Positions 8,961-32,000 of a stretch of DNA of 32,000 bases are shown here, one piece after another. Made by a program: the position numbers and the translations under genes. The first letter of the stretch is position 1. Every line of letters starts with the position of its first letter. A model generated the notes under the pieces. That model worked only from the letters and a program-made list of their open reading frames with translations. It was not told where the DNA came from and did not search any database. The stretch is taken from NCBI RefSeq assembly GCF_000017845.1, contig NC_010546.1, forward strand, positions 3,960,001 to 3,992,000, given 5' to 3'. Source of the DNA: Crocosphaera subtropica ATCC 51142. Lineage in GTDB: Bacteria; Cyanobacteriota; Cyanobacteriia; Cyanobacteriales; Microcystaceae.

Positions 8961-8985
8961 GATTGATCCTCTATATTTTGTTTAT

Positions 8986-9825: not shown

Positions 9826-9828
9826 TGA

Positions 9829-10994: not shown

Positions 10995-11011
10995 AGTAAC
11001 CTCCAGTGGAC

Positions 11012-12049: not shown

Positions 12050-12109
12050 CAGTAGATAATTTTTGCTTGTTTCATAAAAAAAGTTTACATGAAATACACA
12101 ATAAATGCA

Positions 12110-12166
12110 ATACATTTAAAATACATTCTGATAATTTTTAATTTTTTACAGGTTGCATCATGATAG
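12110..12166 (+). promoter_or_regulatory. Regulatory module copy 1: ATACATTTAAAATACATT, a 30-nt spacer, then TCATGATAG (sbpA / DUF202 divergent intergenic region)
   Basis: The exact 18-mer at 12110-12127 (itself ATACATT repeated at 11-bp phase) and the 9-mer at 12158-12166 recur in the same order and orientation at 12812-12870. Confidence 0.5.
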
Positions 12167-12384: not shown

Positions 12385-12756
12385 ATGTCATCTAAATTGA
12401 ATTCTTCTCGCATCAGAGATCACCTAGCTAACGAACGCACCTATCTAGCGTGGATGCGAACAGCAGTAGCTCTGATGGGATTTGGGGTAGTTATTTTACG
12501 TCTTCGTGCCTTTCATCCTCCCTCGGTTCCTCGGCCTGGTTTTGGCTGGAAATTAGGGTTAATTTTTGCTGGAGTAGGGTTATTAACAGTATTATTTTCA
12601 ACTCTACAATACTTTGCTGTACGACGGGATATTGAAGAAGATACCTATGAACCACCAGACCGATGGGTCATTTTGTTTAGTTTAGCGATCACGCTTTTAG
12701 GAGTCGGAATTATTTATTTTGTTTTTATGAGTTCCTTTGAGATTTATCTAACTTAA
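12385..12756 (+). CDS. DUF202 (YidH-type) small membrane protein
   Basis: 123 aa with N-terminal signature LANERTYLAWMRTAVALMGFG followed by three TM segments. It is divergent from sbpA. Confidence 0.8.
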   Translation: MSSKLNSSRIRDHLANERTYLAWMRTAVALMGFGVVILRLRAFHPPSVPRPGFGWKLGLIFAGVGLLTVLFSTLQYFAVRRDIEEDTYEPPDRWVILFSLAITLLGVGIIYFVFMSSFEIYLT

Positions 12757-15731: not shown

Positions 15732-15732
15732 A

Positions 15733-15746
15733 GTGAGTTCGGTGTT
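15733..15746 (+). repeat. GTGAGTTCGGTGTT motif, copy 1 (2 nt after the flv4 stop)
   Basis: Exact 14-mer shared with 18216-18229. It is followed here by a second TCGGTGT unit (tandem heptamer 15739-15752). Confidence 0.6.
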
Positions 15747-15809
15747 CGGTGTTTAGAGTTAATCTATCTCTTCGTCTCCTCATTATTTACCTTTTAAAAT
15801 CTTAAAATC

Positions 15810-16346
15810 ATGTACGAATCTTTAAAACATCCTTCTTCACGGCGCAATAGTTGGCTTAACCTCAACCGTATCGTCAACATTCTAGAAATCATTCAAGATG
15901 CCATTGTTATCTGTTTATGTTTAGGACTATTTTCGTTTATGGTGTTGCAACTGTATTCAATGGTATTGTCTCTGTTGCCACCGGTACAATTTCAGATAGT
16001 AACGGCTGATATCTTATCCTTGCTCATTTGGGTGGAATTATTCCGTTTATTAATTATTTACCTGAAAGAACAGCGCATTTCTATCGGTGTTGCTGTAGAA
16101 GTCGCTATTGTCTCGGTTTTACGAGAATTTATTGTCAGAGGTGTTCTAGAAATTGCTGCAACGCAAGTATTAGCCACCTGTGCCTTTTTACTGGTTTTAG
16201 GAATGTTAATGGTGATTCGGGTTTGGCTTCCTCCCACGTTTGATGGGATTGATCCCGAACACGCTGTATCCCAACGTCATCAACAACGTGCAACGACCAA
16301 AAAAGCAGAAACCAATGGTAATCATGCCATTTTAGCTAAAAATTGA
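15810..16346 (+). CDS. Sll0218-like small membrane protein (PsiE-like) of the flv4-2 operon
   Basis: 178 aa with four hydrophobic segments (IVNILEIIQDAIVICLCLGLF..., IWVELFRLLIIYL...). It sits between the two flv genes, as sll0218 does in Synechocystis. Confidence 0.75.
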   Translation: MYESLKHPSSRRNSWLNLNRIVNILEIIQDAIVICLCLGLFSFMVLQLYSMVLSLLPPVQFQIVTADILSLLIWVELFRLLIIYLKEQRISIGVAVEVAIVSVLREFIVRGVLEIAATQVLATCAFLLVLGMLMVIRVWLPPTFDGIDPEHAVSQRHQQRATTKKAETNGNHAILAKN

Positions 16347-16359
16347 GCCTTTTATAGAT

Positions 16360-16380
16360 GGGCTTAATGATATTAAGCCC
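16360..16380 (+). other. Perfect 9-bp stem-loop GGGCTTAAT-gat-ATTAAGCCC in the sll0218-like/flv2 spacer
   Basis: The arms are exact reverse complements with a 3-nt loop. No U-tract follows, so this is more likely an intra-operon processing or stability element than a terminator. Confidence 0.4.
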
Positions 16381-16430
16381 CTACGAACTTTCACTCAAAC
16401 CTACTATCTATTATCGATCAGAATATAATC

Positions 16431-19889: not shown

Positions 19890-21776
19890 TTAGGCGACAG
19901 TTAAAGCATCTTGGATAGTCTTGTTATAAATAATCCGTCCAGGGGTAGTCCGAATAAATTGAGAAACCGCCTCACCGTCTATTTCCCTCACCCGACGTTC
20001 TCGATAATGTTTGATAACACTACCATCTTCTAAGGTTTCTGTTTTTAAGACCTCAGTATCCGGCAGGTCTGTGACGACTTCTTCGTTGGGATCTTCTGAA
20101 CGTAACCACACATAGGCGTGTAAGTCTACCAGTCCATGTTCAAATGCTTTAACTGCATCGTCGATATTGCCAAAATAACGCCCGTTTCCTTTTTGGGATT
20201 GGGGGTTTTCTGCAGTTAAATAATAACAGCCGAGTACCATGTCCTGAGAGGGTGCAACAATGGGCTTACCCGTTGCAGGAGATAGGATATTATGACAAGC
20301 TAACATCAACAGTCTCGCTTCGGCTTGGGATTCCAAAGACAGAGGAACGTGAACCGCCATTTGGTCCCCGTCAAAGTCAGCGTTAAACGCAGGACAAACC
20401 AAAGGATGTAACTGAATAGCCCGACCTTCCACTAAAATAGGTTCAAAGGCTTGAATCCCTAAACGGTGTAGGGTTGGGGCGCGGTTTAAGAGGACAGGGT
20501 GTCCGGTAATCACTTCTTCTAGGACGTTCCAAACACTGGGATCACCTTTAATAATCAGCTTTTTGGCCGCTTTGATATTATTGACTAATCCTAAGCGAAT
20601 AAGACGATGAATCACGAAGGGTTGGAATAATTCGATCGCCATTTCACGGGGTAAGCCACATTGATAAATTTTCAGTTTTGGCCCCACCACGATTACAGAA
20701 CGACCAGAATAGTCCACCCGTTTTCCTAAGAGGTTTTGACGGAAACGCCCTTGTTTTCCTTCAATAATATCGGATAGGGATTTCAATGGACGATTGTTAG
20801 CCCCAACAACAGTCCGGCCTCGTCTTCCGTTATCAATTAAAGCATCTACTGCTTCTTGTAACATCCGTTTTTCGTTACGGACAATGATTTCCGGTGCGAG
20901 AATCTCTTGTAAGCGGGCTAAACGGTTATTACGGTTAATTACCCGTCGATAAAGGTCATTGAGGTCTGAGGTGGCAAAACGACCCCCGTCTAACTGTACC
21001 ATGGGACGTAAATCTGGGGGAATAACGGGGATAACGTCTAATACCATCCACGCAGGTAATGAACCTGTAGCGATAAAGTTATCAATTACCCGTAAACGTT
21101 TAATCAGTTTGGCCCGTTTCTGTCCTTTACTTTGGGCGATTTCTTCCCGTAAGATTTCGGCAATTTCTTCTAGGTTCATTTCTTGCAGTAACCGTTGAAT
21201 GGCTTCTGCACCGATACCCACTTCTATGCCATATAAGTCGGAATCTTCGGCATAAATCTGATCTTCAATTTCAATCCATTGATCTTCAGTTAAGAGTTGC
21301 TTATAACTTAAATTACTGGCATTCCCCGGATCTAAAACCACATAGGCGTTAAAGTAAACAATTTGTTCTACATCCCGTAAAGCCATATCCAGTAAAATAC
21401 TCATGTAACTGGGAATTCCTTTGAGATACCAGACATGAGTCACAGGGGCTGCTAATTTAATATAGCCCATGCGATGACGACGAACACGGGATTCAGTAAC
21501 TTCGACTCCACACCGTTCGCAAACAATACCTCGGTGACGAACCCGTTTATATTTACCACACCAACATTCCCAGTCTTTCGACGGACCAAAAATCCGCTCA
21601 CAAAATAGTCCGTCCATCTCCGGTTTTAAAGTCCTGTAGTTGATGGTTTCGGGTTTGGTCACTTCTCCGACCACAACCCCATTTGGAAGGGTTCTTTCTC
21701 CCCATTGGCGAACCCGTTCGGGGGAAGCTAACCCAATTTTTACATAGTCGAATCTTGTATCTTGTGCTGGTTTCAT
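19890..21776 (-). CDS. rpoC1: DNA-directed RNA polymerase gamma subunit (N-terminal half of beta-prime)
   Basis: 628 aa with zinc-finger region [35 protein letters not shown] and catalytic [16 protein letters not shown]. It ends where cyanobacterial gamma subunits end. Confidence 0.95.
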
Positions 21777-22130: not shown

Positions 22131-22261
22131 TACAGGGACAGTAAACAAATTCTTTATTTACAGGGGCTTTGTTTGCGATCTAAAATCGTGTGATTTCGGT
22201 ATCTCCCATTGATATTGAGTTCTCCTAGAATACCTCGGTGATGTACCGAGGTTTTTTGTTT
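22131..22261 (+). ncRNA. Candidate ~130-nt non-coding transcript, either an orphan sRNA or a terminated 5' leader
   Basis: It is bounded by the promoter above and a canonical intrinsic terminator. There is no ORF longer than a few codons. It contains an internal AAACAAA/TTTGTTT stem and an unpaired CUCCU just before the terminator. I do not recognise it as a known RNA family. Confidence 0.35.
22232..22261 (+). terminator. Rho-independent terminator
   Basis: 8-bp perfect stem ACCTCGGT/ACCGAGGT with a 5-nt loop GATGT, followed by TTTTTGTTT. Confidence 0.7.
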
Positions 22262-22614: not shown

Positions 22615-25600
22615 ATGAACTCTAAATTTAACCCCTCCCGTCTCGGTATTAGTGGTTTAGCAATTCGTCAACATATTGGCACTTTAATGTTAACCTTAGC
22701 AGTAATGATAGTGGGAATTTTTTTTGTTACCACTATTCAGGTTGACTTACTTCCTTCTATTACTTATCCTCGCATTGGTGTCCGTATCGAAACCCCTGGT
22801 ATTGCCCCAGAAGTTGCCATAGATGAAATTACTAGACCCCTCGAACAAGCGTTATCAGCAACGGAAGGCGTAGAACAGGTTTATTCTCAAACCCGTGAAA
22901 ATCGTGTCAGGTTAGACCTTTATTTTAAGGTAGGTGGCGATATTGATCAATCGTTAAATGATGCCACAGCAGCTTTAAACCGTGCGAGGAATAATTTACC
23001 TGATAATTTAGAACCACCTCGTCTGTTTAAATATGATCCCTCTCAGTTACCCGTATACGAGTTTGCTTTAACTTCATCTATTAAAAAAGATGTAGATTTA
23101 AGGGTGTTTGCCGACGAGGAATTAGCCAGAGAGTTAACGGTGATTCCTGGGGTTGCCTCTGTGGATGTTTCGGGGGGTGTTGAAGAAGAAGTTAGGGTTA
23201 ATATTGATTTAGATCGTTTACAAGCTTTAGGTGTTGGTTTACGGGATGTTTTAGATGAGTTGGAAGAAAGAAACCAAGATGTAGCCGGCGGACGTTTATT
23301 AGGAGAAAATGGGGAACCTTTAACTCGTGCAGTGGGACGGTTTAAAACAGCCGAAGAAATTCGTAATTTATCTTTTGCGGTGCATAATAACGGAGAAAAT
23401 GGAGTATCACAAAGAGTTTATTTAAGGGATTTTGCCGAAGTTATTGATGGGACAGAAGATCAAAGAATTTTTGTCTCTTTAAATGGAACCCCTGCGGTTA
23501 AACTGAGTGTTCAAAAACAACCTGATGCTAATACCATTGAAGTGGTTAATAGGGTCAAAGAAAAAATAAAAAATTTAACCGAAAGTAATATTATTACGGA
23601 TGATATGACGCTGGTGACAACGTTAGATGAATCAATTTTTATTGAAAATTCTATCCAAAATGTAATTAATTCTGGCTTGATCGGTACGGGTTTAGCTGCA
23701 CTGGCAGTTCTCTTATTTTTAGGATCATTGCGTCAAACGTTTATCATTGTTGTGTCTATCCCTTTGGCTACTTTAGGGGCAGTTATTTTAATGAAAATAT
23801 TTGGCTTATCCCTCAATGTTTTTAGTTTAGGGGGATTAGCTTTAGGGGTTGGTATTGTGGTAGATAACTCCATTGTGATGTTAGAAACCATTGCTGAGGG
23901 TGTAGGGGTTGTTCCAGGAAAAAAGAGCAAAAGTCGTTTAACTTCTCAAGACTTAATTAATAAATCAATCAGTAGCAGTCAAACAGTAGAGTCTGCTTTA
24001 ATTGCCTCGACTAGCACAAATTTAGTAGCTGTTTTACCCTTTTTGATGATTGGAGGCTTTATTTCGTTACTATTTAATGAACTGATTTTAACTATTAGCT
24101 TTGCTGTTGCTGCTTCGATTTTAGTAGCGTTGACTATTGTACCAATGTTAACCTCCAGATTATTATCTATTCGTTGGTCAAGTGGGTTACATAAATTCTG
24201 GCCATTATACTGGTTTAATCAAGGATTTAAGCAGTTAACTAAAAGTTATCAATGGTTTCTTGCCCAGCTGCTTAAACTACGCTGGATAGTGATTATTATT
24301 GCATTTGTTGTTTTGGGAGGAAGTAGTCTTAATTTAGCCCAACAAATTCCTCAAGAAATTTTACCAAGGATTAATACGGGACAAGCCCAGTTGATTGCTC
24401 AATTTCCTCCGAATACTTCCCTAGAAACCAATCGTAAGGTGATGGAAGTTACAGAAGAGATTTTTCTGCAACAGCCAGAAACTCAATTTGTTTTTAGCAC
24501 ATCAGGAGGGTATTTATTTGGATCGAATACCACAGAAAATGTCTTACGAGGAACAAGTAATATTACTCTGAAACCTGGAACCAATGTCCAAGCATACACT
24601 GATAGAGTCAGTCAAGAATTTGATAAATTAAATTTAGTTGATATTCGCTTGCGAGTCTTTCCTGATGGGGTAAGAGGGTTAATCTTAAATAACTCCCCCG
24701 TTAGACGGGCAGATATCGATTTAATCTTACAAGGAAACGATCAAAATAGTTTAGATGAGGCAGGAGAAACCATCTTAAACGTATTAGGAGAAAAGGCAAC
24801 CCTAGCACAATTTAGTCCTGATGGTGATCCTCGTCAACCCGAAGTACAAATACGCCCAGATCCTGAGCGATTAGCTACTTTTGGCTTAAATATTGCTGAT
24901 ATTCAAGATTCTCTTGAAACTGCTATCCAAGGTATTGTTGCTACTCGCTTACAAAGGGAAAATCGTCTGGTTGATATTCGAGTACAATTAGATCGCAGTG
25001 TTATTAATCGTCCCTCTGAATTAAAAGATATTCCCTTGTTTACGGAAGGAAATCGTCAAATTCGCTTAGGGGATGTAGCAAAAATTGAAAAAGGAAAAGC
25101 TCCCGCCGAAATTCAACGAATTAATCAGCGTCAAGTATTTATCATAGAAGGAAATTTAACCGAAGGGGCGACTTTGGGAACTGCATTGCAAGAAATGAAG
25201 GCAATTTTAGATACCATCGACTTACCAGAAGGGGTGAGGGTTTTGCCTAGTTATGCTGAACAAAGTAGCAAAGAATTACAATCTGCATTGCTGATTTTAG
25301 GTGCATTAGCTGCCTTTTTAGTCTTCGTGGTTATGGCGGTACAATATAATTCTTTAGTGGACCCTTTAGTGATTATGTTAACCCTTCCCTTGGCATTAAG
25401 TGGAGGTATTTTGGGATTATATATCACCCAAACTGCTATCGGTGCAACGGTAGTTGTAGGGGCAATTTTATTAGTAGGAATTGTAGTAAATAATGCCATT
25501 GTCTTGATAGAATTAGCCAATCAAATTAGACTCGAAAAAAATTGTGATCGCCGAACCGCAATTATTGAAGCAGCCCCCCAAAGATTACGCCCTATTTTGA

Positions 25601-25884
25601 TGACAACTATTACCACAGTTTTAGGGATGTTACCCTTAGCAATAGGGGGAGGAGAAGGGGGAGAATTTTTACAACCTTTGGGTATTGTTGTCTTTTCTGG
25701 GTTATCCTTAGCAACGTTATTAACCCTATTTATTATTCCTTGTTTTTACATTTTACTGCACGATATCTTTAGTCTAGGAAGTAGTAAAAAGAAACAGCAA
25801 AAACCTGAATTTTCTCTAACCCTAGAACCAGAAAAAAAGGATAAAATTAGTTACAAAAAAATTACGACTAAAAATAAACCTTAG
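22615..25884 (+). CDS. RND efflux transporter permease (AcrB/HAE-type), with no adjacent membrane-fusion or outer-membrane partner
   Basis: 1089 aa with twelve-TM, two-large-loop RND layout (N-terminal ...AIRQHIGTLMLTLAVMIVGIFF, GLALGVGIVVDNSIVMLE, VGIVVNNAIVLIE...). It has a Lys-rich C-terminal tail. Confidence 0.9.
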   Translation: MNSKFNPSRLGISGLAIRQHIGTLMLTLAVMIVGIFFVTTIQVDLLPSITYPRIGVRIETPGIAPEVAIDEITRPLEQALSATEGVEQVYSQTRENRVRLDLYFKVGGDIDQSLNDATAALNRARNNLPDNLEPPRLFKYDPSQLPVYEFALTSSIKKDVDLRVFADEELARELTVIPGVASVDVSGGVEEEVRVNIDLDRLQALGVGLRDVLDELEERNQDVAGGRLLGENGEPLTRAVGRFKTAEEIRNLSFAVHNNGENGVSQRVYLRDFAEVIDGTEDQRIFVSLNGTPAVKLSVQKQPDANTIEVVNRVKEKIKNLTESNIITDDMTLVTTLDESIFIENSIQNVINSGLIGTGLAALAVLLFLGSLRQTFIIVVSIPLATLGAVILMKIFGLSLNVFSLGGLALGVGIVVDNSIVMLETIAEGVGVVPGKKSKSRLTSQDLINKSISSSQTVESALIASTSTNLVAVLPFLMIGGFISLLFNELILTISFAVAASILVALTIVPMLTSRLLSIRWSSGLHKFWPLYWFNQGFKQLTKSYQWFLAQLLKLRWIVIIIAFVVLGGSSLNLAQQIPQEILPRINTGQAQLIAQFPPNTSLETNRKVMEVTEEIFLQQPETQFVFSTSGGYLFGSNTTENVLRGTSNITLKPGTNVQAYTDRVSQEFDKLNLVDIRLRVFPDGVRGLILNNSPVRRADIDLILQGNDQNSLDEAGETILNVLGEKATLAQFSPDGDPRQPEVQIRPDPERLATFGLNIADIQDSLETAIQGIVATRLQRENRLVDIRVQLDRSVINRPSELKDIPLFTEGNRQIRLGDVAKIEKGKAPAEIQRINQRQVFIIEGNLTEGATLGTALQEMKAILDTIDLPEGVRVLPSYAEQSSKELQSALLILGALAAFLVFVVMAVQYNSLVDPLVIMLTLPLALSGGILGLYITQTAIGATVVVGAILLVGIVVNNAIVLIELANQIRLEKNCDRRTAIIEAAPQRLRPILMTTITTVLGMLPLAIGGGEGGEFLQPLGIVVFSGLSLATLLTLFIIPCFYILLHDIFSLGSSKKKQQKPEFSLTLEPEKKDKISYKKITTKNKP

Positions 25885-25906
25885 TTAAAACAGTTATTGA
25901 AGGCTT

Positions 25907-26773
25907 ATGAATAAAGCAAAATCTTGGTTTAAAAATAGAGTTTGTATCTTAGCCACCATGCACAAAAAAGAAAAAGTCATGGCTTCACTTTTAGAAGACA
26001 AGATACAGATGAAAGTTATTGTCCCTGATAACTTTAATACCGATCAATTTGGTACATTTACCAGAGAAATAAAGCGTCTAGGAAATCAAACCGAAGCAGC
26101 CCGTTTTAAAGCCCAAAAAGCCTTAGAAATTACAGGAGAAACTCTCGCCATTACTAGCGAAGGTAGCTTTTTTCCTCATCCTAGTATTCCTTTTGTTAGT
26201 TGTAATAGAGAATTAGTTTTGTTACTAGATACCGTCAATGAAATTGAAATTATAGCCACAGAATTATCTTTTGATACTAATCATTCTCACACCTCTATTC
26301 AAACCGTTGAAGAAGCCTTGTCTTTTGCTAAAAAGGTTGGCTTTCCTGATCATGGTTTAGTGGTTATGTCAAGGGCTGATCCCGAAAAAAGCGAGAAAAT
26401 TTTTAAAGGAATTACTAACAAAAAAGAATTAATTGATACCGTGAAAATAACCCTTAACTCTTCTCCTGAAAATAAAGCTCATATTGAAACAGATATGAGG
26501 GCAATGTATAATCCCACTCGCATGAAAGTCATTGCTAAAACCACTGAAACTTTAATTAACAAAATACTTACTACCTGTCCTAATTGTGATGTTCCTGGAT
26601 TTGATATTGTTGACACTAAACCAGGTTTACCCTGTCAAATGTGTCATTTTCCTACTACTTTAATTAAATCAGAAGTTTATCAATGTCAAAAGTGTCATCA
26701 CCAGGAAATTAGAGATTATCCTAATGATCTTAAATATGCTGATCCCATGTATTGTAATTATTGTAATCCTTAA
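25907..26773 (+). CDS. Conserved hypothetical protein with a C-terminal four-CxxC (double zinc-ribbon-like) region
   Basis: 288-aa soluble protein. The C-terminal 65 aa contain CPNC, CQMC, CQKC and CNYC. The N-terminal part (RVCILATMHKKEKV...DQFGTFTREI...ITSEGSFFPHPSIPF) reminds me of an uncharacterised DUF family (possibly DUF6671), but I cannot verify that. It lies 22 nt after the RND gene and 26 nt before the MFS gene. Confidence 0.6.
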   Translation: MNKAKSWFKNRVCILATMHKKEKVMASLLEDKIQMKVIVPDNFNTDQFGTFTREIKRLGNQTEAARFKAQKALEITGETLAITSEGSFFPHPSIPFVSCNRELVLLLDTVNEIEIIATELSFDTNHSHTSIQTVEEALSFAKKVGFPDHGLVVMSRADPEKSEKIFKGITNKKELIDTVKITLNSSPENKAHIETDMRAMYNPTRMKVIAKTTETLINKILTTCPNCDVPGFDIVDTKPGLPCQMCHFPTTLIKSEVYQCQKCHHQEIRDYPNDLKYADPMYCNYCNP

Positions 26774-26799: not shown

Positions 26800-28215
26800 A
26801 TGAGCAATTTTGAAGAAAAACTTGACAATTCTTCGTTAACCCTTGAGATGTGGTTACTATGGATATTAGCTGCAGGTTTGATCGCTCTAGATGGGTTTGA
26901 CTTCTTTGTCATCGGTATTGCCCTACCCTTTCTCAAACAAGATTTTCACTTAACCTCTGTGGAAACTGGCGCAGTTGCCGTGGCTGCGATCGCAGGGGCG
27001 TTATTAGGATCTTTAACCCTAGGGCCCATTACAGACCAAATTGGTCGTCAAAAAATGCTGGTGGTGGATCTAGCTATTTTTATTCTAGCTAGTGCTGGAA
27101 CCGCTTTGGCTTGGAATGCTTGGTCTTTAATTATCTTCCGTTTTCTCGTTGGGGTGGGTATTGGGGCTGATTATCCCATCAGTGTGGCTTATATAACAGA
27201 AAATGTGCCTTCTCGTCTGCGAGGACGCATGGTGATTGGTGCGTTTACCTTTCAAGCCATTGGTTCCTTTTTAGGGGCAATGACTGGCATTATAATCATT
27301 ACGATCTTTGAATACCTTTACCCAGATTCTATTTTACCTGCGGTACAGTATGCTTGGCGTTGGATGTTAGGGGTTGGTCTAGGATTTGCCATACTCGTTG
27401 CCATTCTACGGTTTCAATTTTTACTCGAAAGTCCTCGTTATTACATTGCCAAAGGAGACTACAAAGCAGCATCGGAGGCAGCCTCACAACTGTTAAATGA
27501 AACGGTGATAATCACAGCAGAAACAGAACCACAGCTAGAAGAGAGTGATTTAAACTATAGCTCGTTATTTTCAGCAAAATATTGGCGCAATACTCTTTTT
27601 GCCTCGGTTCCCTGGTTTTTACAAGATATCGCTACCTATGGGATTGGGGTGTTTACCCCTAGTATTATCGCCTTTTTAGCCTTTGCCAATGAAACTAATT
27701 TTTTAAACCGTGAACTAGAGTCTGCAACCAGTTCGGCAGTGGTTGATTTATTTTTAATCCTTGGTTTTATTTTAGCGGTTCTCTTAGTTGATCGTTTAGG
27801 ACGAATTCCCTTACAAATAATCGGATTTATGGGGATGGCCGTCGGTTTATCTATCCTAGCTGTGGCAGGTGATCCGACTCAAACCACTGATCCTAATCTG
27901 CTGTTAATCTTCTCAGGATTTGTTATTTTTAATCTGCTGATGAATATGGGGCCCAATTCAACCACATTCTTGATCTCGGGTGAAGTGTTTCCCACCTCCC
28001 TGCGTGCTAGTGGTGCCGGGTTAGCAGCAGCGATCGCCAAATCAGGAGCGGTATTAGGGACTTTTACCTTACCCTTACTCAGACAAAGTATCGGTGTGTC
28101 AATGCTGATGATAATGTTAGCGTTGTGTTGTCTTTTAGCGGCCGTGATCACTTATTTCTTCGGTATTGAAACCAAAGGACTCTCATTAGAATCTGTCAAT
28201 GAACCCCATGTCTGA
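26800..28215 (+). CDS. MFS transporter (sugar-porter / PHS-like signature)
   Basis: 471 aa with twelve predicted TM segments, motif A-like GPITDQIGRQKM, and FRFLVGVGIGADYPIS...PSRLRGR, which resembles the G-I-G-G-D-Y-P-L-S block of Pho84-type anion:H+ symporters. The central loop is about 60 aa. Confidence 0.85.
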   Translation: MSNFEEKLDNSSLTLEMWLLWILAAGLIALDGFDFFVIGIALPFLKQDFHLTSVETGAVAVAAIAGALLGSLTLGPITDQIGRQKMLVVDLAIFILASAGTALAWNAWSLIIFRFLVGVGIGADYPISVAYITENVPSRLRGRMVIGAFTFQAIGSFLGAMTGIIIITIFEYLYPDSILPAVQYAWRWMLGVGLGFAILVAILRFQFLLESPRYYIAKGDYKAASEAASQLLNETVIITAETEPQLEESDLNYSSLFSAKYWRNTLFASVPWFLQDIATYGIGVFTPSIIAFLAFANETNFLNRELESATSSAVVDLFLILGFILAVLLVDRLGRIPLQIIGFMGMAVGLSILAVAGDPTQTTDPNLLLIFSGFVIFNLLMNMGPNSTTFLISGEVFPTSLRASGAGLAAAIAKSGAVLGTFTLPLLRQSIGVSMLMIMLALCCLLAAVITYFFGIETKGLSLESVNEPHV

Positions 28216-29569
28216 ACCAGAAACCAAGATCCCCAATAATAATGAGCTTGCCATGCAGCGTACTGATCTGGCGCAAATGCGGACAGATTTAGCAGCAGAA
28301 AGAAACCTTTTGGCCGAAACTCGCACAGAGTTGGCAAGGGAACGTACTCGGGCCGCACAAGAGAGAACCTTAATGGCCTGGATACGGACATCCTTATCCA
28401 TGATTAGTTTTGGTTTTGGAATTGACCGTTTTTTTAGCTATTTGAACAAAACCAGCCCCAAAACTGGGATTAATACCCTAACAGAAGAACGGGTTTTAGG
28501 CTTAAGTCTCATGAGTTTGGGCATCTTTGCCTTAGCTGCTTCTTTAGTGACCCATTGGCGTACTCTTAAAAATATTGACGATAAAGAATACAAGTATATC
28601 CCTCGATGGTCCCAAGGATTTACCGTTGGGATTATTCTGCTATTTATTGCTCTAGCAGCTTTTATTCCTTTATTAACAGTTGATTTTAATTTATCAGAAA
28701 TTTTCACCCTAGATAGCCAAGTTATTCAAAATTTGCTTGCTTTAAATATATTTCTGATTATGTTGACAATGGGGGTTAAAATCCCATTAGCTGATTTAGT
28801 TTCCCTAAAAAACCATCCCCGATTTTTAGGTAAATCGCTACTGTCTGTATTAGTTATTTTTCCACTGATTGTGGTTTTGGTTTTATCATTCTTTAATCCA
28901 GGAAAAAATATTGCTATTGCCTTCATTCTTCTCGCAGCTTCCCCGGCACCACCTCTATTAACCAAAAGAACAATGATGTCAGGAGGAAATGTTACTTTTG
29001 CAGCTAGTTTACAGGTCATTTTATCTTTATTAGCTGTGATTGTTACTCCTTTGGTAGTATGTTTGTTTTCATTGATTTTCCCTGAAAATCGTGAAAGTAT
29101 TAATTTTATTTTAGTGGCGAAACAAGTAGCAACTGTTCAATTACTCCCGTTAAGTCTTGGTTTAGTGATTCGCAAGCTTTCGGCTGATTTAGGAGAAGAA
29201 ATTGGAGATTTATTACTAAATGTAGCGAATACTTTGTTTTTAGTGGTGCTTATTTTTTCCCTTGGTATTAGTCTAAATCTGGTTCCCTCGGTGGGTTGGA
29301 AAACGATTATTAGTATTGCTTTAATCGTAACATTGGGTCTAATTATTGGTCATTTATTGGGTAGGGTTGATGATAACTACTTAAATAGTCGATCTACTCT
29401 AGCAACAGCGACGATTGCTCGTAATGTTGGATTGGCTTTATATATTGCTATTGTTAATAGTGCAACTAATGCGATTCCTGGTATTGTTGCCTATGCGGTT
29501 TTAGGAGCTATTTTTGCTTTACCTTATAATATTTGGGTAAAAAATAAGATAAAACTAGGCACTAATTAG
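28199..29569 (+). CDS. Fusion protein: N-terminal DUF202 (YidH-type, 3 TM) + C-terminal bile-acid:Na+ symporter (BASS/SLC10, SBF-like) domain
   Basis: Residues ~45-175 match the neighbouring DUF202 proteins (ELARERTRAAQERTLMAWIRTSLSMISFGFGIDRF plus 3 TM). Residues ~180-456 are a polytopic carrier with SBF-like features (LIMLTMGVKIPLADL..., AFILLAASPAPPLLTKRTMMSGGNVTFAASL). Its ATG overlaps the MFS stop by 17 nt. Confidence 0.75.
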   Translation: MNPMSEPETKIPNNNELAMQRTDLAQMRTDLAAERNLLAETRTELARERTRAAQERTLMAWIRTSLSMISFGFGIDRFFSYLNKTSPKTGINTLTEERVLGLSLMSLGIFALAASLVTHWRTLKNIDDKEYKYIPRWSQGFTVGIILLFIALAAFIPLLTVDFNLSEIFTLDSQVIQNLLALNIFLIMLTMGVKIPLADLVSLKNHPRFLGKSLLSVLVIFPLIVVLVLSFFNPGKNIAIAFILLAASPAPPLLTKRTMMSGGNVTFAASLQVILSLLAVIVTPLVVCLFSLIFPENRESINFILVAKQVATVQLLPLSLGLVIRKLSADLGEEIGDLLLNVANTLFLVVLIFSLGISLNLVPSVGWKTIISIALIVTLGLIIGHLLGRVDDNYLNSRSTLATATIARNVGLALYIAIVNSATNAIPGIVAYAVLGAIFALPYNIWVKNKIKLGTN

Positions 29570-29586
29570 GTTAACATGAATAACCG

Positions 29587-29985
29587 ATGATTAATAATCC
29601 TCCAAATTGGCAAACAGAACTCGCTAAACAACGTAATCGCATTGCAGCCGATCGCACTCTTTTAGCTTGGGTTCGTACCAGTATGGCTTTAATTGGTATT
29701 GGTTTTGGATTAGAACGCACTGTGAGTAAACTTTATGTAGGGGTAGAAACGACCTCAAATGCCCCCATGTTTCTCGTTAAACTTTTTAGTTTATTGATTA
29801 TTGGGACAGGGACTTTTGCTATAGTTATGGCAGCCTTTGATTATCAAAAAGAAATGAAACGGTTACAACAACCCAACTATTATTATATGCCTCGTCAATC
29901 TTTGGGTATCATTGTATCCGGACTATTAGTGTTAATTGCTATTAGTATTTTCCTAACCATTTGGAGACAAGCTATTATTAATTAA
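29587..29985 (+). CDS. DUF202 (YidH-type) small membrane protein, array copy 2
   Basis: 132 aa with ELAKQRNRIAADRTLLAWVRTSMALIGIGFG plus 3 TM. It starts 17 nt after the fusion gene. Confidence 0.8.
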   Translation: MINNPPNWQTELAKQRNRIAADRTLLAWVRTSMALIGIGFGLERTVSKLYVGVETTSNAPMFLVKLFSLLIIGTGTFAIVMAAFDYQKEMKRLQQPNYYYMPRQSLGIIVSGLLVLIAISIFLTIWRQAIIN

Positions 29986-29999
29986 GTGATTTAACAATT

Positions 30000-30398
30000 A
30001 TGACACCTGATAAAATAACCGGAGCAACTAACGAATTAGCAAAAGAACGAAATCGTGCAGCAGCAGAACGAACCATGACTGCATGGATACAAAATTGTTT
30101 AACATTAGTTGGATTTGGATTTGCTATTGACCAAATTTTTCAAGCATTACAACAAAAGTTTCCTCATAAAAATCCCTCAATCACTATAGAATCAGCCCAT
30201 TCTATCAGTTTAATTTTAATTGCTATAGGAATTGGTTTATTGATTATTGCGATGGTTCAACATTACTTTGAGGTACAATCAATTAAACGAGATGACTATT
30301 TTTTTTATCCTAGTCACTATCTAAATATTATTGTTGTTTTCGCAATTATTGCCTTTGGTTTTGTCTCTCTATTCATTATATTTCTAGGAATTAATTAA
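30000..30398 (+). CDS. DUF202 (YidH-type) small membrane protein, array copy 3 (divergent signature)
   Basis: 132 aa with ELAKERNRAAAERTMTAWIQNCLTLVGFGFAIDQIF plus 3 TM. The conserved W-I-R-T is replaced by W-I-Q-N. It starts 14 nt after copy 2. Confidence 0.8.
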   Translation: MTPDKITGATNELAKERNRAAAERTMTAWIQNCLTLVGFGFAIDQIFQALQQKFPHKNPSITIESAHSISLILIAIGIGLLIIAMVQHYFEVQSIKRDDYFFYPSHYLNIIVVFAIIAFGFVSLFIIFLGIN

Positions 30399-30437
30399 AT
30401 TTAAACTATCAAATACAAAGATTAATTATAAAGTAAA

Positions 30438-30827
30438 ATGACAAATCCTAATCCTGGTACAGAACTAGCAAAAGAACGAAATCGCGCAGCACAAGAAAGG
30501 ACTTTAATGGCGTGGATTCGGACTTCTTTAACCTTAATTAGTTTTGGTTTTGGTATAGAAAGAATTGTTTCTATTCTTAATCAAAGTGTAGGAGAAATTG
30601 CAAATCCGATTCGTTTATCTCGAATTTTAGGGGTTTCGTTTATTGCTTTAGGCACTTTTTCTTTATTAGCTGCAGCAGTCGATTATCGTCGTCAACTTCA
30701 AAGAATTCAACGCAATGATTTACTTTATCAGTCCAGAAAATCTCCCACACTTATCGTTGCTTATATTCTTGCTTTGTTAGGAATTATTGCTTTTTTGGGG
30801 ATTATCATTGGTCCGTTGATTACTTAA
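30438..30827 (+). CDS. DUF202 (YidH-type) small membrane protein, array copy 4
   Basis: 129 aa with ELAKERNRAAQERTLMAWIRTSLTLISFGFGIERI plus 3 TM. This region is nearly identical to the DUF202 part of the fusion gene, including a 17-nt identical DNA run ATTAGTTTTGGTTTTGG (28403-28419 and 30537-30553). Confidence 0.8.
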   Translation: MTNPNPGTELAKERNRAAQERTLMAWIRTSLTLISFGFGIERIVSILNQSVGEIANPIRLSRILGVSFIALGTFSLLAAAVDYRRQLQRIQRNDLLYQSRKSPTLIVAYILALLGIIAFLGIIIGPLIT

Positions 30828-31113: not shown

Positions 31114-31183
31114 AGAGGCAAACATAAAGACTCAAACCATTCTGCAATAAAGAGTAGGGTGGGCAATGCCCACCTGACAATTT

Positions 31184-32000
31184 TTAACTATCAAGATTGA
31201 TAGTAACTTGATCTAAATTCCCAGTAAAATCAAAGGGCGTTTCATACGCTTCTGTAACAGGGGTTCCGGTATCAAAGCCAACATCAAAGGTTTCATCGAT
31301 AGAAAGACGGTTAGGCAAAGTTTTCTCCACTCTTCCACTGCCAATTTTACGATTATTGGCGTAAAGAGTAACATTTCCCCCGGCAAAGGGTTCGTCTGCA
31401 TCGGTTTTGTAAACGGCTTTAAGTTTAACCTTTCCAGTGGGAATAGATTCAGTAGAAACAACGTCGTAATGAGCCGTATCAGCCAAGTTATAACTATAAA
31501 CCAGCTTACCGTCTTTAATATACAGCCCATAACCTCCAAAACGACCGCCATGAGTCATTAATACCCCTTCTGTACCATTATCAGGAATGATTACATCGGC
31601 TGTAATGGTATGATTTTTATGTTTCACATCGGGGGCAGAACCTTCGGTAATGCGTAAATGATCAGGATAACTAAAGGTCGTTCTTCCTTCAGTTAAACTA
31701 GGGCGTAAATCGACCCGAAAACGCTCCGTTTTGCGCGCATCTAACGGCAATACATCATATTTAGCTGCTTGTGCATAGAATAAGTCTTTCATCTCTTGCA
31801 ACTTATCCGGCATATCTGCAGCAAGATCCACTGCTTGGGTAAAATCTTCATCAATATGGTACAGTTCCCAATCAAGATGGAGTAAATCTTTATTGGAAGG
31901 AGTCGGGTCCCAAGGAATACTATTCAACGCACTAGCCATCCAACCATCATGATAAATGCCTTGATTACCTAACATTTCAAAGTATTGGGTATTGTGACGG
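31184..32000 (-). CDS. Arylsulfatase, C-terminal ~270 aa (5' part lies right of the window)
   Basis: The minus-strand frame stays open to base 32000 (...RHNTQYFEMLGNQGIYHDGWMA...). The C-terminal domain GGYGLYIKDGKLVYSYNL...FDVGFDTGTPV...PFDFTGNLDQVTINL matches the tail of large (~780 aa) AtsA-type arylsulfatases. Confidence 0.85.
   Translation of the reverse strand, partial: RHNTQYFEMLGNQGIYHDGWMASALNSIPWDPTPSNKDLLHLDWELYHIDEDFTQAVDLAADMPDKLQEMKDLFYAQAAKYDVLPLDARKTERFRVDLRPSLTEGRTTFSYPDHLRITEGSAPDVKHKNHTITADVIIPDNGTEGVLMTHGGRFGGYGLYIKDGKLVYSYNLADTAHYDVVSTESIPTGKVKLKAVYKTDADEPFAGGNVTLYANNRKIGSGRVEKTLPNRLSIDETFDVGFDTGTPVTEAYETPFDFTGNLDQVTINLDS

What the first reader, a model, noticed from the sequence alone, without database searches (positions are those of the whole stretch)
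28199..30827. Tandem array of four DUF202 (YidH-type) genes, the first fused to a BASS/SLC10 carrier: candidate uncharacterised hetero-oligomeric membrane system
Seen in sequence:
- Four consecutive same-strand genes, separated by 17, 14 and 39 nt, each encode the DUF202 signature (E-L-A-x-E-R-x-R-A-A-x-E-R-T-x-x-A-W-I-R-T) followed by three TM helices.
- The first copy carries an extra ~280-aa SBF/BASS-like polytopic domain at its C-terminus.
- Copies 1 and 4 are nearly identical through the signature region, including a 17-nt identical DNA run.
- Copy 3 has lost the W-I-R-T motif (W-I-Q-N).
- A fifth DUF202 gene lies at 12385.

Established knowledge:
- DUF202 (PF02656) has no assigned bacterial function.
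- To my knowledge the same 3-TM module is the membrane domain of the eukaryotic VTC polyphosphate polymerase. There, five such modules (3 Vtc1 + Vtc3 + Vtc4) assemble into an anion-conducting channel.

Inference: several diverged small paralogs plus one domain-fused paralog look like the parts list of a hetero-oligomeric 3-TM-module pore physically coupled to a secondary carrier. No such bacterial assembly has been described, as far as I know.
Basis: partly seen in the sequence, partly recalled or inferred. Interest (0 to 1): 0.75.

Follow-up and report, generated by a model that had tools for sequence, protein, structure and literature searches.

The report
Conserved DUF202 gene set with carrier fusion
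Four old, distinct copies of a small three-helix membrane protein, whose only solved relative is the pore of the yeast polyphosphate-exporting VTC complex, sit together in this cyanobacterium, one fused to an unusual bile-acid-type carrier; the same set recurs across cyanobacteria next to sulfatase genes, which points to an unstudied anion-handling membrane machine.

Summary
Four same-strand genes (28199/28208-29569, 29587-29985, 30000-30398, 30438-30827) and a fifth at 12385 all pass Pfam DUF202. The first also carries a BASS/SBF domain.

This is not a recent duplication. The paralogues are 28-47% identical, under purifying selection, and form four clean orthologous clades. Of 28 fusion-bearing loci from many cyanobacterial orders, 25 keep D3 and D4 and 22 keep D2 beside the fusion.

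- The set lies in sulfatase islands. Its commonest neighbours are FGE, sulfatase and a Pho84/PiPT-type MFS, and none of these is among the commonest neighbours of DUF202 pairs that lack the fusion. E. coli yidHG-yidJK and a deltaproteobacterial sulfatase-SulP-DUF202-SBF row show the same logic.
- The BASS domain lacks the sodium-site residues and has invariant arginines at the helix crossover.
- The DUF202 signature is the end of a heptad arginine ladder. It aligns with the pore rings of Vtc1, and the fusion extends it.

A hetero-oligomeric arginine-lined anion conduit tethered to the carrier is the best reading, but assembly, pore and substrate are untested. I rate it a new variant of known kinds, with moderately high interest.

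The parts
28199..29569 (+). Fusion gene (likelier start 28208). It encodes an N-terminal heptad Arg/Thr ladder, a DUF202 3-TM module, and a 9-TM-type BASS/SBF carrier domain with Arg-substituted sodium sites.
   Evidence: Pfam gives DUF202 at residues 49-124 and SBF at 182-357. The AF2 model has pLDDT 83.9 and Foldseek matches ASBT and NTCP. One search returned 158 homologues; the 120 listed are nearly all fusions and, where named, cyanobacterial. dN/dS is 0.09-0.10.
28244..28390 (+). Codons 16-64 of the fusion: seven heptads xLAxxRT with Arg at 21, 28, 35, 42, 49, 56 and 63. The last three heptads are the DUF202 signature.
   Evidence: Heptad parsing. AF2 predicts one continuous helix over residues 14-85. 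The number of heptads varies between species (alignment A1). R49 and R56 align with Vtc1 K24 and R31.
28691..29566 (+). BASS/SBF carrier domain of the fusion, about residues 165-456.
   Evidence: Profile match to PDB BASS chains. ASBT_NM S114, N115, E260 and Q264 align with L254, T255, A404 and R408. R257 is invariant in the 22-sequence alignment A1 and at least 90% conserved in the 105-sequence A2; R408 is invariant in both. All 56 DUF202-linked SBF proteins that cover this region keep R408-type Arg.
29587..29985 (+). D2-type DUF202 gene (132 aa). The orthogroup signature is A-D-R-[ST]-L-L.
   Evidence: Pfam 1.7e-15. The clade has 26 members, precision and recall 1.0. Group consensus. dN/dS 0.18-0.24.
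30000..30398 (+). D3-type DUF202 gene (132 aa). The orthogroup has lost the third pore-facing Arg (W-I-Q-N).
   Evidence: Pfam 7.7e-14. The clade has 45 members, precision and recall 1.0. At the R63 position the group shows Q20, G17 and R3 of 45, against 100% Arg in the other groups. dN/dS 0.10-0.11.
30438..30827 (+). D4-type DUF202 gene (129 aa). This is the type found next to unfused SBF genes in other bacteria.
   Evidence: Pfam 2.9e-19. The only PDB sequence hits are Vtc1 chains, over residues 17-119. The best-F1 D4 clade in the NJ tree has precision 1.00 and recall 0.84. D4+SBF pairs are listed. dN/dS 0.08-0.11.
26800..28215 (+). Pho84/PiPT-type (PHS family) MFS transporter. Its stop overlaps the start of the fusion gene, so the two are probably translationally coupled.
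   Evidence: Pfam Sugar_tr. The best PDB hits are phosphate transporters, PiPT at 9e-42 and PHT1;11 at 2.5e-38, against GlcP at 5e-25. The PiPT pocket and proton-relay residues are conserved (with the residue list from PMC6761603). An MFS lies within 5 kb of the fusion in 16 of 28 loci.
31184..32000 (-). C-terminal part of an arylsulfatase of about 790 aa, convergent with the array. The gene runs off the end of the window.
   Evidence: The reading frame is open to the window end. It matches the C-termini of 784-802-aa Pfam sulfatase proteins beside the fusion in other loci.
31157..31175 (.). GC-rich hairpin with T-runs on both strands, lying between the array and the sulfatase gene. It is a likely bidirectional terminator.
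   Evidence: No comparably GC-rich terminator-like site (the hairpin has 6 of 8 G-C pairs) lies on the + strand inside 28199-30827.
22615..26773 (+). RND (AcrB-type) gene and DUF6671 gene, on the same strand and 22-26 nt apart from each other and from the MFS gene. They may be co-transcribed, but they are not conserved partners.
   Evidence: Pfam. An RND gene was seen in only one or two other loci.
12385..12756 (+). Fifth DUF202 gene (D5). It belongs to a separate, highly conserved cyanobacterial YidH lineage and is divergent from the sulfate ABC transporter operon. It is not part of the array.
   Evidence: Pfam 1.6e-20. It is 25-29% identical to the array members and distant in the tree. Homologues are 71-95% identical across orders. 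Contexts contain TauE, a CysA-like ABC ATPase and Na_sulph_symp genes.

Best explanation
The four genes encode a conserved membrane module, not a pile of duplicates.

Proposed mechanism. The DUF202 modules of the fusion and of D2, D3 and D4 assemble side by side into a VTC-like ring; a pentamer is the precedent. In that ring the weakly hydrophobic TM1 helices face the centre. Each TM1 carries arginines spaced seven residues apart, so the centre becomes a positively charged, cytoplasm-facing anion path. D3 contributes a subunit without the innermost arginine. The fusion subunit extends the arginine ladder by four or more heptads into the cytoplasm. It also tethers to the ring a BASS-fold elevator carrier that has exchanged its sodium sites for arginines, which points to an anion substrate without sodium coupling.

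Proposed role. The module works together with a Pho84/PiPT-type proton/oxyanion symporter, or with a SulP permease in other phyla. It sits in gene islands for formylglycine-dependent sulfatases. Its job is therefore most likely to move sulfate or a closely related oxyanion or organo-anion across the inner membrane during use of sulfate esters.

Shown: domain identities, ancient paralogy, conserved linkage, conserved arginine positions, replaced sodium sites and the sulfatase context.

Inferred: co-assembly, stoichiometry, existence of a pore, substrate and direction.
For: Conserved set:
- 28 fusion loci from many cyanobacterial genera were examined. D4 lies within 5 kb in 25, D3 in 25, D2 in 22 and the MFS in 16.
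- The four types form clean clades.
- They are only 28-47% identical within the window.
- dN/dS is 0.08-0.24.

Fixed, different roles:
- The signatures are specific to each group. R49 and R56 are 100% conserved in all 176 sequences. R63 is 100% in FUS, D2 and D4 but Q or G in D3. R42 is present only in the fusion. D2 has Asp where the others have Glu.

VTC precedent:
- Vtc1 chains are the only PDB sequence hits.
- R49 and R56 align with Vtc1 K24 and R31, which form the two charged rings of the pore. E55 aligns with the inter-subunit lock residue E30.
- VTC itself is a heteromer of diverged DUF202 paralogues.

Link to the carrier:
- The fusion is the form seen in cyanobacteria. Adjacent D4-type+SBF gene pairs occur in Cyanobium/Synechococcus, Acidovorax, a rhizobial MAG, a deltaproteobacterium and Aliterella.

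Anion carrier:
- The sodium-site residues of ASBT_NM are replaced. R408 is universal in all 56 DUF202-linked SBF proteins that cover this region.

Sulfate context:
- Among 197 neighbours in 23 fusion loci, FGE occurs 15 times, sulfatase 15 and Sugar_tr MFS 14.
- None of these is among the commonest families in 118 neighbours of 33 fusion-less DUF202 loci.
- The deltaproteobacterial row reads sulfatase, SulP+STAS, DUF202, SBF.
- In E. coli, yidH-yidG (both DUF202) lie beside the sulfatase gene yidJ and the transporter gene yidK.

Operon-like layout in the window:
- The MFS and fusion genes overlap, the gaps are 14-39 nt, and no strong internal terminator was found.
Against: - No direct evidence for co-assembly was obtained. 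Multimer prediction and co-evolution contact analysis were not available.
- Gene content varies. Fischerella, Gloeothece and some others lack D2, and some loci show the fusion alone. A fixed four-paralogue stoichiometry therefore cannot be universal.
- D3 is on the opposite strand in most other genera, so strict co-transcription is not conserved.
- The position aligned with the Vtc1 lock arginine R83 is only patchily Arg.
- The MFS partner keeps every phosphate-pocket residue of PiPT, including the Asp thought to read a protonated phosphate. This favours phosphate over sulfate.
- Most of the cyanobacterial sulfatases carry signal peptides. Sulfate would then be released outside the cell, whereas by analogy with VTC an Arg-lined cytoplasmic vestibule suggests outward movement. 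Direction and substrate do not yet fit together neatly.
- Overexpressed YidH in E. coli showed no transport in the one assay found, which tested D-alanine (PMC10299036).
Confidence: 0.4

Rival explanations
1. Accessory-subunit model. There is no common ring. Each DUF202 protein is a small partner, acting as regulator, stabiliser or oligomerisation scaffold for an elevator-type or MFS carrier, or it forms its own homo-oligomer. The paralogues lie together only because their client transporters (BASS, PHS-MFS, extra SBF copies) lie together in the island.
For: - One-to-one D4-type+SBF pairs exist without D2 or D3.
- D4+D3 pairs occur in 30 or more other loci with neither SBF nor sulfatase and with mixed neighbours.
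- In the Nodosilinea-type layout, D2 follows the MFS and D4 precedes the fusion.
- Most bacteria have a single DUF202 gene, so homo-oligomers must be common (knowledge of the family, and D5).
- Extra stand-alone SBF genes occur in several islands.
Against: - D2 is not tied to the MFS. Fischerella has the MFS without D2, and SU3, BG0011, L003 and L016 have D2 without the MFS.
- The D2/D3/D4 trio tracks the fusion better than it tracks any other gene.
- D3 lacks a pore arginine group-wide yet keeps the rest of the motif. That pattern suits a specialised position in a mixed ring.
- The only solved DUF202 assembly is a heteromer of paralogues.
Confidence: 0.25
2. Phosphate or polyphosphate model. 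The module is a bacterial counterpart of the VTC channel and works with a true phosphate/proton symporter. The sulfatase-family enzymes act as promiscuous formylglycine phosphoesterases. The arginine ladder binds and conducts phosphate or polyphosphate.
For: - The MFS is closest to the PiPT and PHT1 phosphate transporters. Twelve of the thirteen listed pocket and proton-relay residues are identical and one is a conservative change.
- DUF202 is the polyphosphate pore of VTC.
- A 5'-nucleotidase sits between the two sulfatases in Nodosilinea, and HAD hydrolases occur in several islands.
- A heptad ladder of arginines suits a linear polyanion.
Against: - FGE and PF00884 sulfatases with SGSH_C or Sulfatase_C tails are the dominant neighbours.
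- In the deltaproteobacterium a SulP sulfate permease replaces the MFS. SulP genes or fragments also occur in two cyanobacterial islands.
- No polyphosphate kinase or VTC catalytic or SPX domain appears among the commonest neighbour families returned (top 25 per batch) or in the window proteins that were scanned.
- A Pho-box pattern is no more frequent than chance.
- The fifth DUF202 gene and the E. coli genes also sit in sulfur-related contexts.
Confidence: 0.15
3. Recent tandem duplication with decaying copies and no joint function.
For: The genes lie in tandem on one strand, and copies 1 and 4 share a 17-nt identical run.
Against: - The paralogues are 28-47% identical.
- Each forms an old clade spanning cyanobacterial orders.
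- dN/dS is 0.08-0.24.
- The arrangement differs between genera while the gene set is kept.
Confidence: 0.02

Closest known systems
Membrane domain of the eukaryotic VTC polyphosphate polymerase (Vtc1, Vtc3/2, Vtc4; PDB 7YTJ, 8I6V, 9UMG)
   Same: - The Pfam family is the same (PF02656), and the module has three TM helices.
- The A-x-E-R-T-x-L-x-W motif lies at the start of TM1.
- Arginines at the positions of Vtc1 K24 and R31, seven residues apart, and a Glu at the position of the lock residue E30 are conserved.
- Several diverged paralogues are encoded together, as in the 3:1:1 VTC heteropentamer.
   Different: - The proteins scanned in the window have no SPX domain and no catalytic tunnel (TTM) domain.
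- The proteins are bacterial and sit in the inner membrane.
- A third arginine ring (R63) replaces Vtc1 N38, and the fusion carries up to a dozen extra heptads.
- One subunit is fused to a secondary carrier rather than to an enzyme.
- The genomic context is sulfatases, not polyphosphate synthesis.
- Sequence similarity to Vtc1 is weak (E about 0.01), and the assembly state is unknown.
E. coli yidH-yidG (with yidF) next to yidJ (sulfatase) and yidK (SSF transporter)
   Same: Two diverged DUF202 paralogues are encoded by overlapping genes. They lie beside a sulfatase and a secondary transporter. The logic is the same as in the cyanobacterial islands.
   Different: - There is no BASS domain or fusion, and there are two paralogues rather than four.
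- The transporter belongs to the SSF family.
- I read the YidJ N-terminus, recalled from memory and not displayed here, as lacking a signal peptide.
- These genes are also uncharacterised. YidH was a candidate in a D-alanine export screen but showed no transport.
BASS/SLC10 transporters (ASBT_NM, ASBT_Yf, NTCP, PanS, plant BASS)
   Same: - The fold is the same (target TM-score about 0.75, E 3e-9), and Pfam SBF is above its cut-off.
- The crossover of two broken helices is kept, with the N409 equivalent conserved.
- Like NTCP, the domain has the 9-TM form.
   Different: - The sodium-site residues are not kept: S114 to L, N115 to T, E260 to A, Q264 to R.
- R408 is invariant; R257 is invariant in the 22-sequence alignment and at least 90% conserved in the 105-sequence one.
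- The score is far below the NCBIfam BASS subfamily cut-off (57 against 326 bits).
- The domain is preceded by a DUF202 module. The substrate is unknown.
Pho84/PiPT/PHT1 phosphate:proton symporters (PHS family), for the coupled upstream gene
   Same: These are the best PDB matches, and the phosphate pocket and proton relay are conserved residue by residue.
   Different: - The protein is cyanobacterial, whereas the paper consulted lists the family only from yeasts, fungi and plants (PMC6761603).
- Its gene overlaps a DUF202-BASS gene and lies in sulfatase islands.
- In one other phylum a SulP permease takes its place.

Membership tests
DUF202 / YidH family (Pfam PF02656) | Match to the Pfam model above the gathering score (23.4 bits) | tested here: met
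   The five proteins score 61.9, 57.6, 52.3, 69.7 and 73.8 bits.
DUF202 / YidH family (Pfam PF02656) | Three transmembrane helices, with the conserved E-R-T-x-x-A-W motif at the start of the first | tested here: met
   The AF2 model has helices 14-85, 91-127 and 139-159. The hydropathy scan detects only TM2 and TM3 in the array members, so TM1 is weakly hydrophobic (below the threshold); all three are detected in D5. The motifs are shown.
VTC polyphosphate polymerase complex | Catalytic tunnel (TTM, PF09359) domain and SPX domain on the large subunits | tested here: not met
   Neither domain appears in the array proteins or in the other window proteins scanned. Neither is among the commonest neighbour families returned (top 25 per batch).
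VTC polyphosphate polymerase complex | DUF202 membrane module with basic residues at the K24 and R31 positions and Glu at the E30 position | tested here: met
   Alignment to Vtc1. R49 and R56 are 100% conserved, and the E55 position is E or D.
VTC polyphosphate polymerase complex | Heteropentameric ring with TM1 helices lining a pore | not testable with these tools
   Only single-chain prediction was offered and no coordinates or contact maps are returned. Conserved co-occurrence is indirect.
BASS / SLC10 (Pfam PF01758, SBF) | Sequence match above the Pfam cut-off and the BASS core/panel fold | tested here: met
   SBF scores 51.8 bits against a cut-off of 24.3. Foldseek matches ASBT and NTCP at E 3e-9 with target TM-scores of 0.73-0.76.
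BASS / SLC10 (Pfam PF01758, SBF) | Conserved Na1 and Na2 sodium-site residues (ASBT_NM S114, N115, S128, T132, E260, Q264; the list is from my knowledge of Hu et al. 2011, and PMC10645422 confirms that the sites lie at the crossover and are widely conserved) | tested here: not met
   The aligned residues are L254, T255, A268, Q272, A404 and R408. The pattern holds in all 56 related proteins that cover this region.
BASS / SLC10 (NCBIfam TIGR00841 subfamily) | Score above the curated subfamily cut-off (326.3 bits) | tested here: not met
   The score is 57 bits.
Sulfatase utilisation island (sulfatase + FGE maturase + transporters) | A PF00884 sulfatase and a PF03781 FGE gene within a few kb, recurrently across genomes | tested here: met
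   Each family occurs 15 times among 197 neighbours of 23 loci, and neither is among the top families in the control set. In this window only the sulfatase is visible, at 31184-32000. No FGE gene lies inside the window.
PHS (Pho84/PiPT) family, for the MFS gene 26800-28215 | Conserved phosphate-pocket residues (Y150, F174, Q177, W320, D324, Y328, N431, K459) and proton-relay residues (D45, D48, E108, R139, D149) | tested here: met
   All are identical except E108, which is Asp, in the alignment to 7SP5. The residue list is from PMC6761603. Transport itself was not tested.

The most novel reading that the evidence does not exclude
The four paralogues build a bacterial VTC-like heteromeric channel. 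Its pore helices carry three arginine rings, plus a long single-subunit arginine ladder reaching into the cytoplasm. One subunit is covalently joined to a sodium-independent, arginine-type BASS elevator carrier. This would be a composite channel-plus-carrier machine of a kind not described in any organism. It would give bacterial DUF202/YidH its first function: conducting sulfate, or a linear polyanion such as polyphosphate or a sulfated polymer, across the inner membrane in step with sulfatase activity.
Probability: 0.2. Interest if true: 0.8.

Novelty: new variant of a known kind. Interest (0 to 1): 0.62.

Why it matters
DUF202/YidH is a widespread bacterial and archaeal membrane family with no known function. 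Its only understood member is the pore of the eukaryotic polyphosphate polymerase.

This locus, and the roughly 25 related loci found here, offer a concrete and testable bacterial case:
- a fixed set of specialised paralogues;
- a natural fusion that names a partner, an atypical BASS carrier;
- a recurrent physiological context of formylglycine sulfatases and an oxyanion symporter, which suggests which growth conditions and substrates to try.

It also defines a BASS subfamily in which arginines replace the sodium sites. It shows Pho84/PiPT-type transporters with an intact phosphate pocket in cyanobacteria.

If the ring model holds, it would show how the VTC channel arose from a bacterial anion conduit. 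It could also fill gaps in how bacteria move sulfate during use of organosulfates.

Tried and rejected
- **Pho-box search.** The pattern YTTAAYYWNNNYTTAAYYW with up to 3 mismatches gave 109 hits against 96 +/- 10 expected. It is uninformative and says nothing about phosphate control.
- **Profile against PDB.** A profile of 28 DUF202 sequences did not improve on the single-sequence match to Vtc1; E stays near 0.01. The homology claim therefore rests mainly on shared Pfam membership.
- **Whole-model Foldseek.** The BASS domain dominates the result, and no VTC chain appears in the top 50.
- **Hetero-oligomer modelling.** It was considered with the second structure job. D3 and D4 are in the same frame, but the spacer holds four stop codons. 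Artificial concatenations are not admissible, and the tool returns no contacts.
- **Ionic-lock arginine.** The position aligned with Vtc1 R83 is only patchily Arg and the alignment there is uncertain, so I do not use it as evidence.
- **Failed look-up.** One context look-up (P0143) found nothing.
- **Literature.** Searches for DUF202 returned mostly DUF2023, DUF2024 and DUF2027. No paper on the bacterial function of DUF202, or on DUF202-BASS proteins, was found in the held library.
- **Gene conversion rejected.** Recent conversion between copies 1 and 4 does not explain the 17-nt run. The run encodes the family-wide I-S-F-G-F-G motif, and the genes are otherwise 47% identical at the protein level.
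- **D5 rejected as a fifth subunit.** It belongs to a different lineage, lies in a different context and is 16 kb away.

Full report

Yes. The window has four consecutive + strand ORFs at 28199-29569 (456 aa), 29587-29985 (132 aa), 30000-30398 (132 aa) and 30438-30827 (129 aa). They are separated by 17, 14 and 39 nt. A further small ORF lies at 12385-12756.

All five proteins match Pfam DUF202 (PF02656) well above the gathering score, with E from 8e-17 to 1.6e-20. The first protein also matches SBF (PF01758, residues 182-357, 1.1e-13) and SBF_like.

The 17-nt identical run shared by copies 1 and 4 exists (28403 and 30537, ATTAGTTTTGGTTTTGG). Copy 3 reads W-I-Q-N in place of W-I-R-T.

One refinement concerns the start. 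Relatives and the 100%-identical database entry (453 aa) begin at the second ATG, 28208. That start overlaps the TGA of the upstream MFS gene.

**2. Is it a recent duplication?**

No. Within the window the array members are 28-47% identical to each other, and 25-29% identical to the fifth gene.

A scan of one genome per species returned 80 loci. Searching their ORFs with the window proteins gave 28 loci that carry the DUF202-SBF fusion. They come from Crocosphaera/Cyanothece relatives, Xenococcaceae, Nodosilinea, Leptolyngbya, Halomicronema, Spirulina, Phormidium, Fischerella, Pelatocladus, Synechococcus, Halothece and Dactylococcopsis.

- A D4-type gene lies within 5 kb of the fusion in 25 loci, a D3-type in 25 and a D2-type in 22. 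Several of the exceptions are short contigs.
- In a neighbour-joining tree of 182 DUF202 modules, D2 and D3 form exclusive clades. The fusion clade has precision 1.00 and recall 0.94, and the D4 clade has precision 1.00 and recall 0.84. The fifth gene is far from all of them.
- Against two relatives, dN/dS is 0.08-0.24 for all four genes.
- Gene order and strand differ between genera. Nodosilinea-type loci read MFS, D2, D3 on the opposite strand, D4, fusion. Fischerella-type loci read MFS, fusion, D4, D3. The gene set is nevertheless kept.

**3. What the proteins look like**

*The DUF202 modules.* An AlphaFold model of the fusion was built with 105 homologues (pLDDT 83.9, pTM 0.75). It has one continuous helix over residues 14-85, then helices 91-127 and 139-159, then the carrier domain.

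Residues 16-64 are seven heptads of the form xLAxxRT, with Arg at 21, 28, 35, 42, 49, 56 and 63. The classic DUF202 signature is simply the last three heptads. Homologues carry different numbers of the extra heptads.

Across 176 modules the conservation is as follows:

| Position | FUS | D4 | D2 | D3 |
|---|---|---|---|---|
| R49 | invariant | invariant | invariant | invariant |
| R56 | invariant | invariant | invariant | invariant |
| R63 | invariant | invariant | invariant | Q or G in 37 of 45 |
| R42 | 30 of 30 | absent | absent | absent |
| E55 position | Glu | Glu | Asp in 23 of 26 | Glu |

TM1 is only weakly hydrophobic in the array members.

*Relation to VTC.* The only PDB sequences that the small paralogues hit are Vtc1 chains (9UMG, 8I6V, 7YTJ). 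The match has E about 0.01-0.03; the single-sequence match spans the whole 3-TM module, whereas the profile match covers only the motif and TM1 region.

In the VTC structures, five DUF202 modules (three Vtc1, one Vtc3, one Vtc4) form a pseudo-symmetric ring. Its TM1 helices line the channel. K24 and R31 of Vtc1, seven residues apart, form two positive rings in the cytoplasmic vestibule. E30 makes inter-subunit ionic locks (PMC9911596; bioRxiv 10.1101/2023.01.27.525886).

R49, R56 and E55 of the fusion align with K24, R31 and E30. R63 falls where Vtc1 has N38, one heptad deeper.

*The carrier domain.* It has the BASS fold. Foldseek gives E 3e-9 and target TM-scores of 0.73-0.76 to ASBT_NM, ASBT_Yf and NTCP.

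Its best sequence match in the PDB is a 300-residue BASS protein, aligned from its residue 9. I take this to mean the domain is of the 9-TM, N-terminus-outside type, like NTCP. That fits a 3-TM module placed in front of it; this is inference.

The profile alignment to ASBT_NM places L254, T255, A268, Q272, A404 and R408 at the positions of S114, N115, S128, T132, E260 and Q264. Those are the sodium-site residues. The list is from my knowledge of the 2011 ASBT_NM structure paper, and PMC10645422 confirms that the sites lie at the helix crossover, are conserved in many BASS members, and adjoin the substrate site.

R408 is invariant in the family; R257 is invariant in the 22-sequence alignment and at least 90% conserved in the 105-sequence one. 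All 56 of the 57 DUF202-linked SBF proteins collected here that cover this region, fused or adjacent and including proteobacterial ones, have Arg at the 408 position, no Glu at the 404 position, and basic residues in helix 4b.

The protein is far below the NCBIfam BASS subfamily cut-off. This is therefore a distinct, probably sodium-independent, anion-type BASS subfamily.

**4. Genomic context**

*In the window.* The same-strand upstream gene (26800-28215) is an MFS transporter. Its best solved relatives are the fungal and plant phosphate/proton symporters PiPT (9e-42) and PHT1;11 (2.5e-38), well ahead of sugar porters.

In that alignment, twelve of the thirteen PiPT phosphate-pocket and proton-relay residues listed in PMC6761603 are identical (D45, D48, R139, D149, Y150, F174, Q177, W320, D324, Y328, N431, K459). 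E108 is Asp.

Downstream and convergent is the C-terminal part of an arylsulfatase of about 790 aa that runs off the window. A two-sided hairpin at 31157-31175 lies between it and the array.

*Elsewhere.* Labelled contigs show the same theme:
- Fischerella PCC 9605: two sulfatases, MscS, MarC, MFS, fusion, two DUF202 genes, a SulP fragment.
- Nodosilinea E11: sulfatase, 5'-nucleotidase, sulfatase, UPF0114, MFS, DUF1622, D2, D3, D4, fusion, FGE.
- Gloeothece PCC 7424: FGE, HAD, sulfatase, MarC, fusion, two DUF202 genes.

*Neighbour census.* The commonest Pfam families among 197 neighbouring ORFs of 23 fusion loci are FGE-sulfatase (15), Sulfatase (15), Sugar_tr/MFS (14), UPF0114 (10), SBF (8), MarC (7), DUF1622 (7) and MscS (5).

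As a control, 118 ORFs next to D4/D3-type pairs were scanned in 33 loci without the fusion. No sulfatase, FGE or Sugar_tr family is among the leading families there, and no family occurs more than four times.

*Outside cyanobacteria.*
- A deltaproteobacterial contig reads sulfatase, unknown, SulP+STAS permease, DUF202, SBF on one strand, with the DUF202 start at the SulP stop.
- In E. coli K-12 the overlapping genes yidH and yidG are both DUF202. They lie beside the sulfatase gene yidJ and the transporter gene yidK.

Most of the cyanobacterial sulfatases have N-terminal signal peptides. The deltaproteobacterial and Aliterella ones do not.

**5. Most likely mechanism**

I take the module to be a VTC-like ring of DUF202 subunits with an arginine-lined central path. 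One position is filled by the fusion protein, which tethers an arginine-type BASS carrier and projects a long arginine ladder into the cytoplasm. D3 is a specialised subunit with one positive charge fewer. The whole serves anion traffic, with sulfate the best guess, in sulfatase islands and alongside an oxyanion/proton symporter.

The steps that are shown are the domain identities, the old paralogy, the conserved linkage, the conserved and group-specific pore-position residues, the replaced sodium sites and the context statistics. The steps that are inferred are co-assembly, stoichiometry, the pore, the substrate and the direction.

Several points weigh against a simple story:
- Paralogue content varies between lineages, from one to four.
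- D3 is often divergently transcribed.
- The MFS pocket looks phosphate-specific.
- Secreted sulfatases release sulfate outside the cell, whereas a cytoplasmic arginine vestibule suggests outward conduction by analogy with VTC.

I put 0.4 on this model, 0.25 on the accessory-subunit model and 0.15 on a phosphate or polyphosphate role.

**6. Comparison with known systems**

The array proteins are members of DUF202/YidH. They are not a VTC complex, because the proteins scanned have no SPX or catalytic domain, but they may work like its membrane part. The carrier is a BASS-fold protein that fails the sodium-site test.

I found no paper on the bacterial function of DUF202, or on DUF202-BASS proteins, in the held library. 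The only experimental mention is YidH as a false lead in a D-alanine export screen. Public annotation calls these proteins 'DUF202 domain-containing protein' or 'BASS family bile acid:Na+ symporter'.

**7. Verdict**

The feature is real, conserved and uncharacterised. Its interpretation is partly supported and can now be sharpened with the sulfatase context, the arginine-type BASS domain and the heptad arginine ladder.

The novelty is a new variant of known kinds: DUF202 channel modules plus a BASS carrier. Interest is 0.62.

Noticed in passing
window 26800-28215 (+): A cyanobacterial MFS transporter of the Pho84/PiPT/PHT1 type. Twelve of thirteen phosphate-pocket and proton-relay residues are identical to PiPT. 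The paper consulted lists this family only from yeasts, fungi and plants. An MFS matching the window's (by phmmer) recurs next to the DUF202 set in 16 of 28 loci.
   Followed up: partly
window 28244-28390 (+); alignment A1 columns 40-130: The N-terminus of the fusion is a run of xLAxxRT heptads. The copy number differs between species, from about 4 to more than 10 units. The DUF202 signature is the membrane-proximal end of this repeat.
   Followed up: partly
window 12385-12756 (+), with 7947-12115 (-) and 12922-13713 (+): The fifth DUF202 gene lies divergent from a sulfate ABC transporter operon (binding protein, two permeases, ATPase with TOBE domain). A 263-aa ORF with no Pfam hit follows it. 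Its orthologues are 71-95% identical across cyanobacterial orders. In Microcystis and Rippkaea they sit beside a Cad-family gene, a LysR regulator, TauE, a CysA-like ATPase or a Na_sulph_symp gene.
   Followed up: partly
window 22179-22256 (+): Rfam match to the cyanobacterial small RNA PsrR1 (79.6 bits, gathering score 42). Its terminator hairpin is at 22232-22252, in the 840-nt spacer upstream of the RND gene.
   Followed up: no
window 19890-21776 (-): A full-length rpoC1 (RNA polymerase gamma subunit, 628 aa) stands alone. No rpoB gene lies upstream and no rpoC2 downstream, which differs from the usual cyanobacterial rpoB-rpoC1-rpoC2 row.
   Followed up: no
window 14001-18158 (+): Two flavodiiron-type proteins (metallo-beta-lactamase, flavodoxin and flavin reductase domains) flank a small PsiE-family membrane protein at 15810-16346. 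From memory, the layout resembles the flv4-sll0218-flv2 operon.
   Followed up: no
loci L005, L007, L012, L018-L021, L028 and others; also the fusion-less loci: The small membrane protein families DUF1622 and DUF1269 recur next to DUF202 genes both with and without the fusion; UPF0114 and MarC recur in the fusion islands. All are themselves uncharacterised.
   Followed up: no
window 22615-26773 (+): An AcrB-type RND pump gene has no adjacent membrane-fusion-protein gene. A DUF6671 gene follows it, and the two are packed 22-26 nt apart in front of the MFS gene. DUF6671 also appears near a D4/D3 pair in Westiellopsis (L058).
   Followed up: no
L036 4597-10833 (Deltaproteobacteria bacterium SM23_61): A tight one-strand row of sulfatase, unknown ORF, SulP+STAS permease, DUF202 and SBF. 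It shows the DUF202+SBF pair linked to a sulfate permease outside cyanobacteria.
   Followed up: partly
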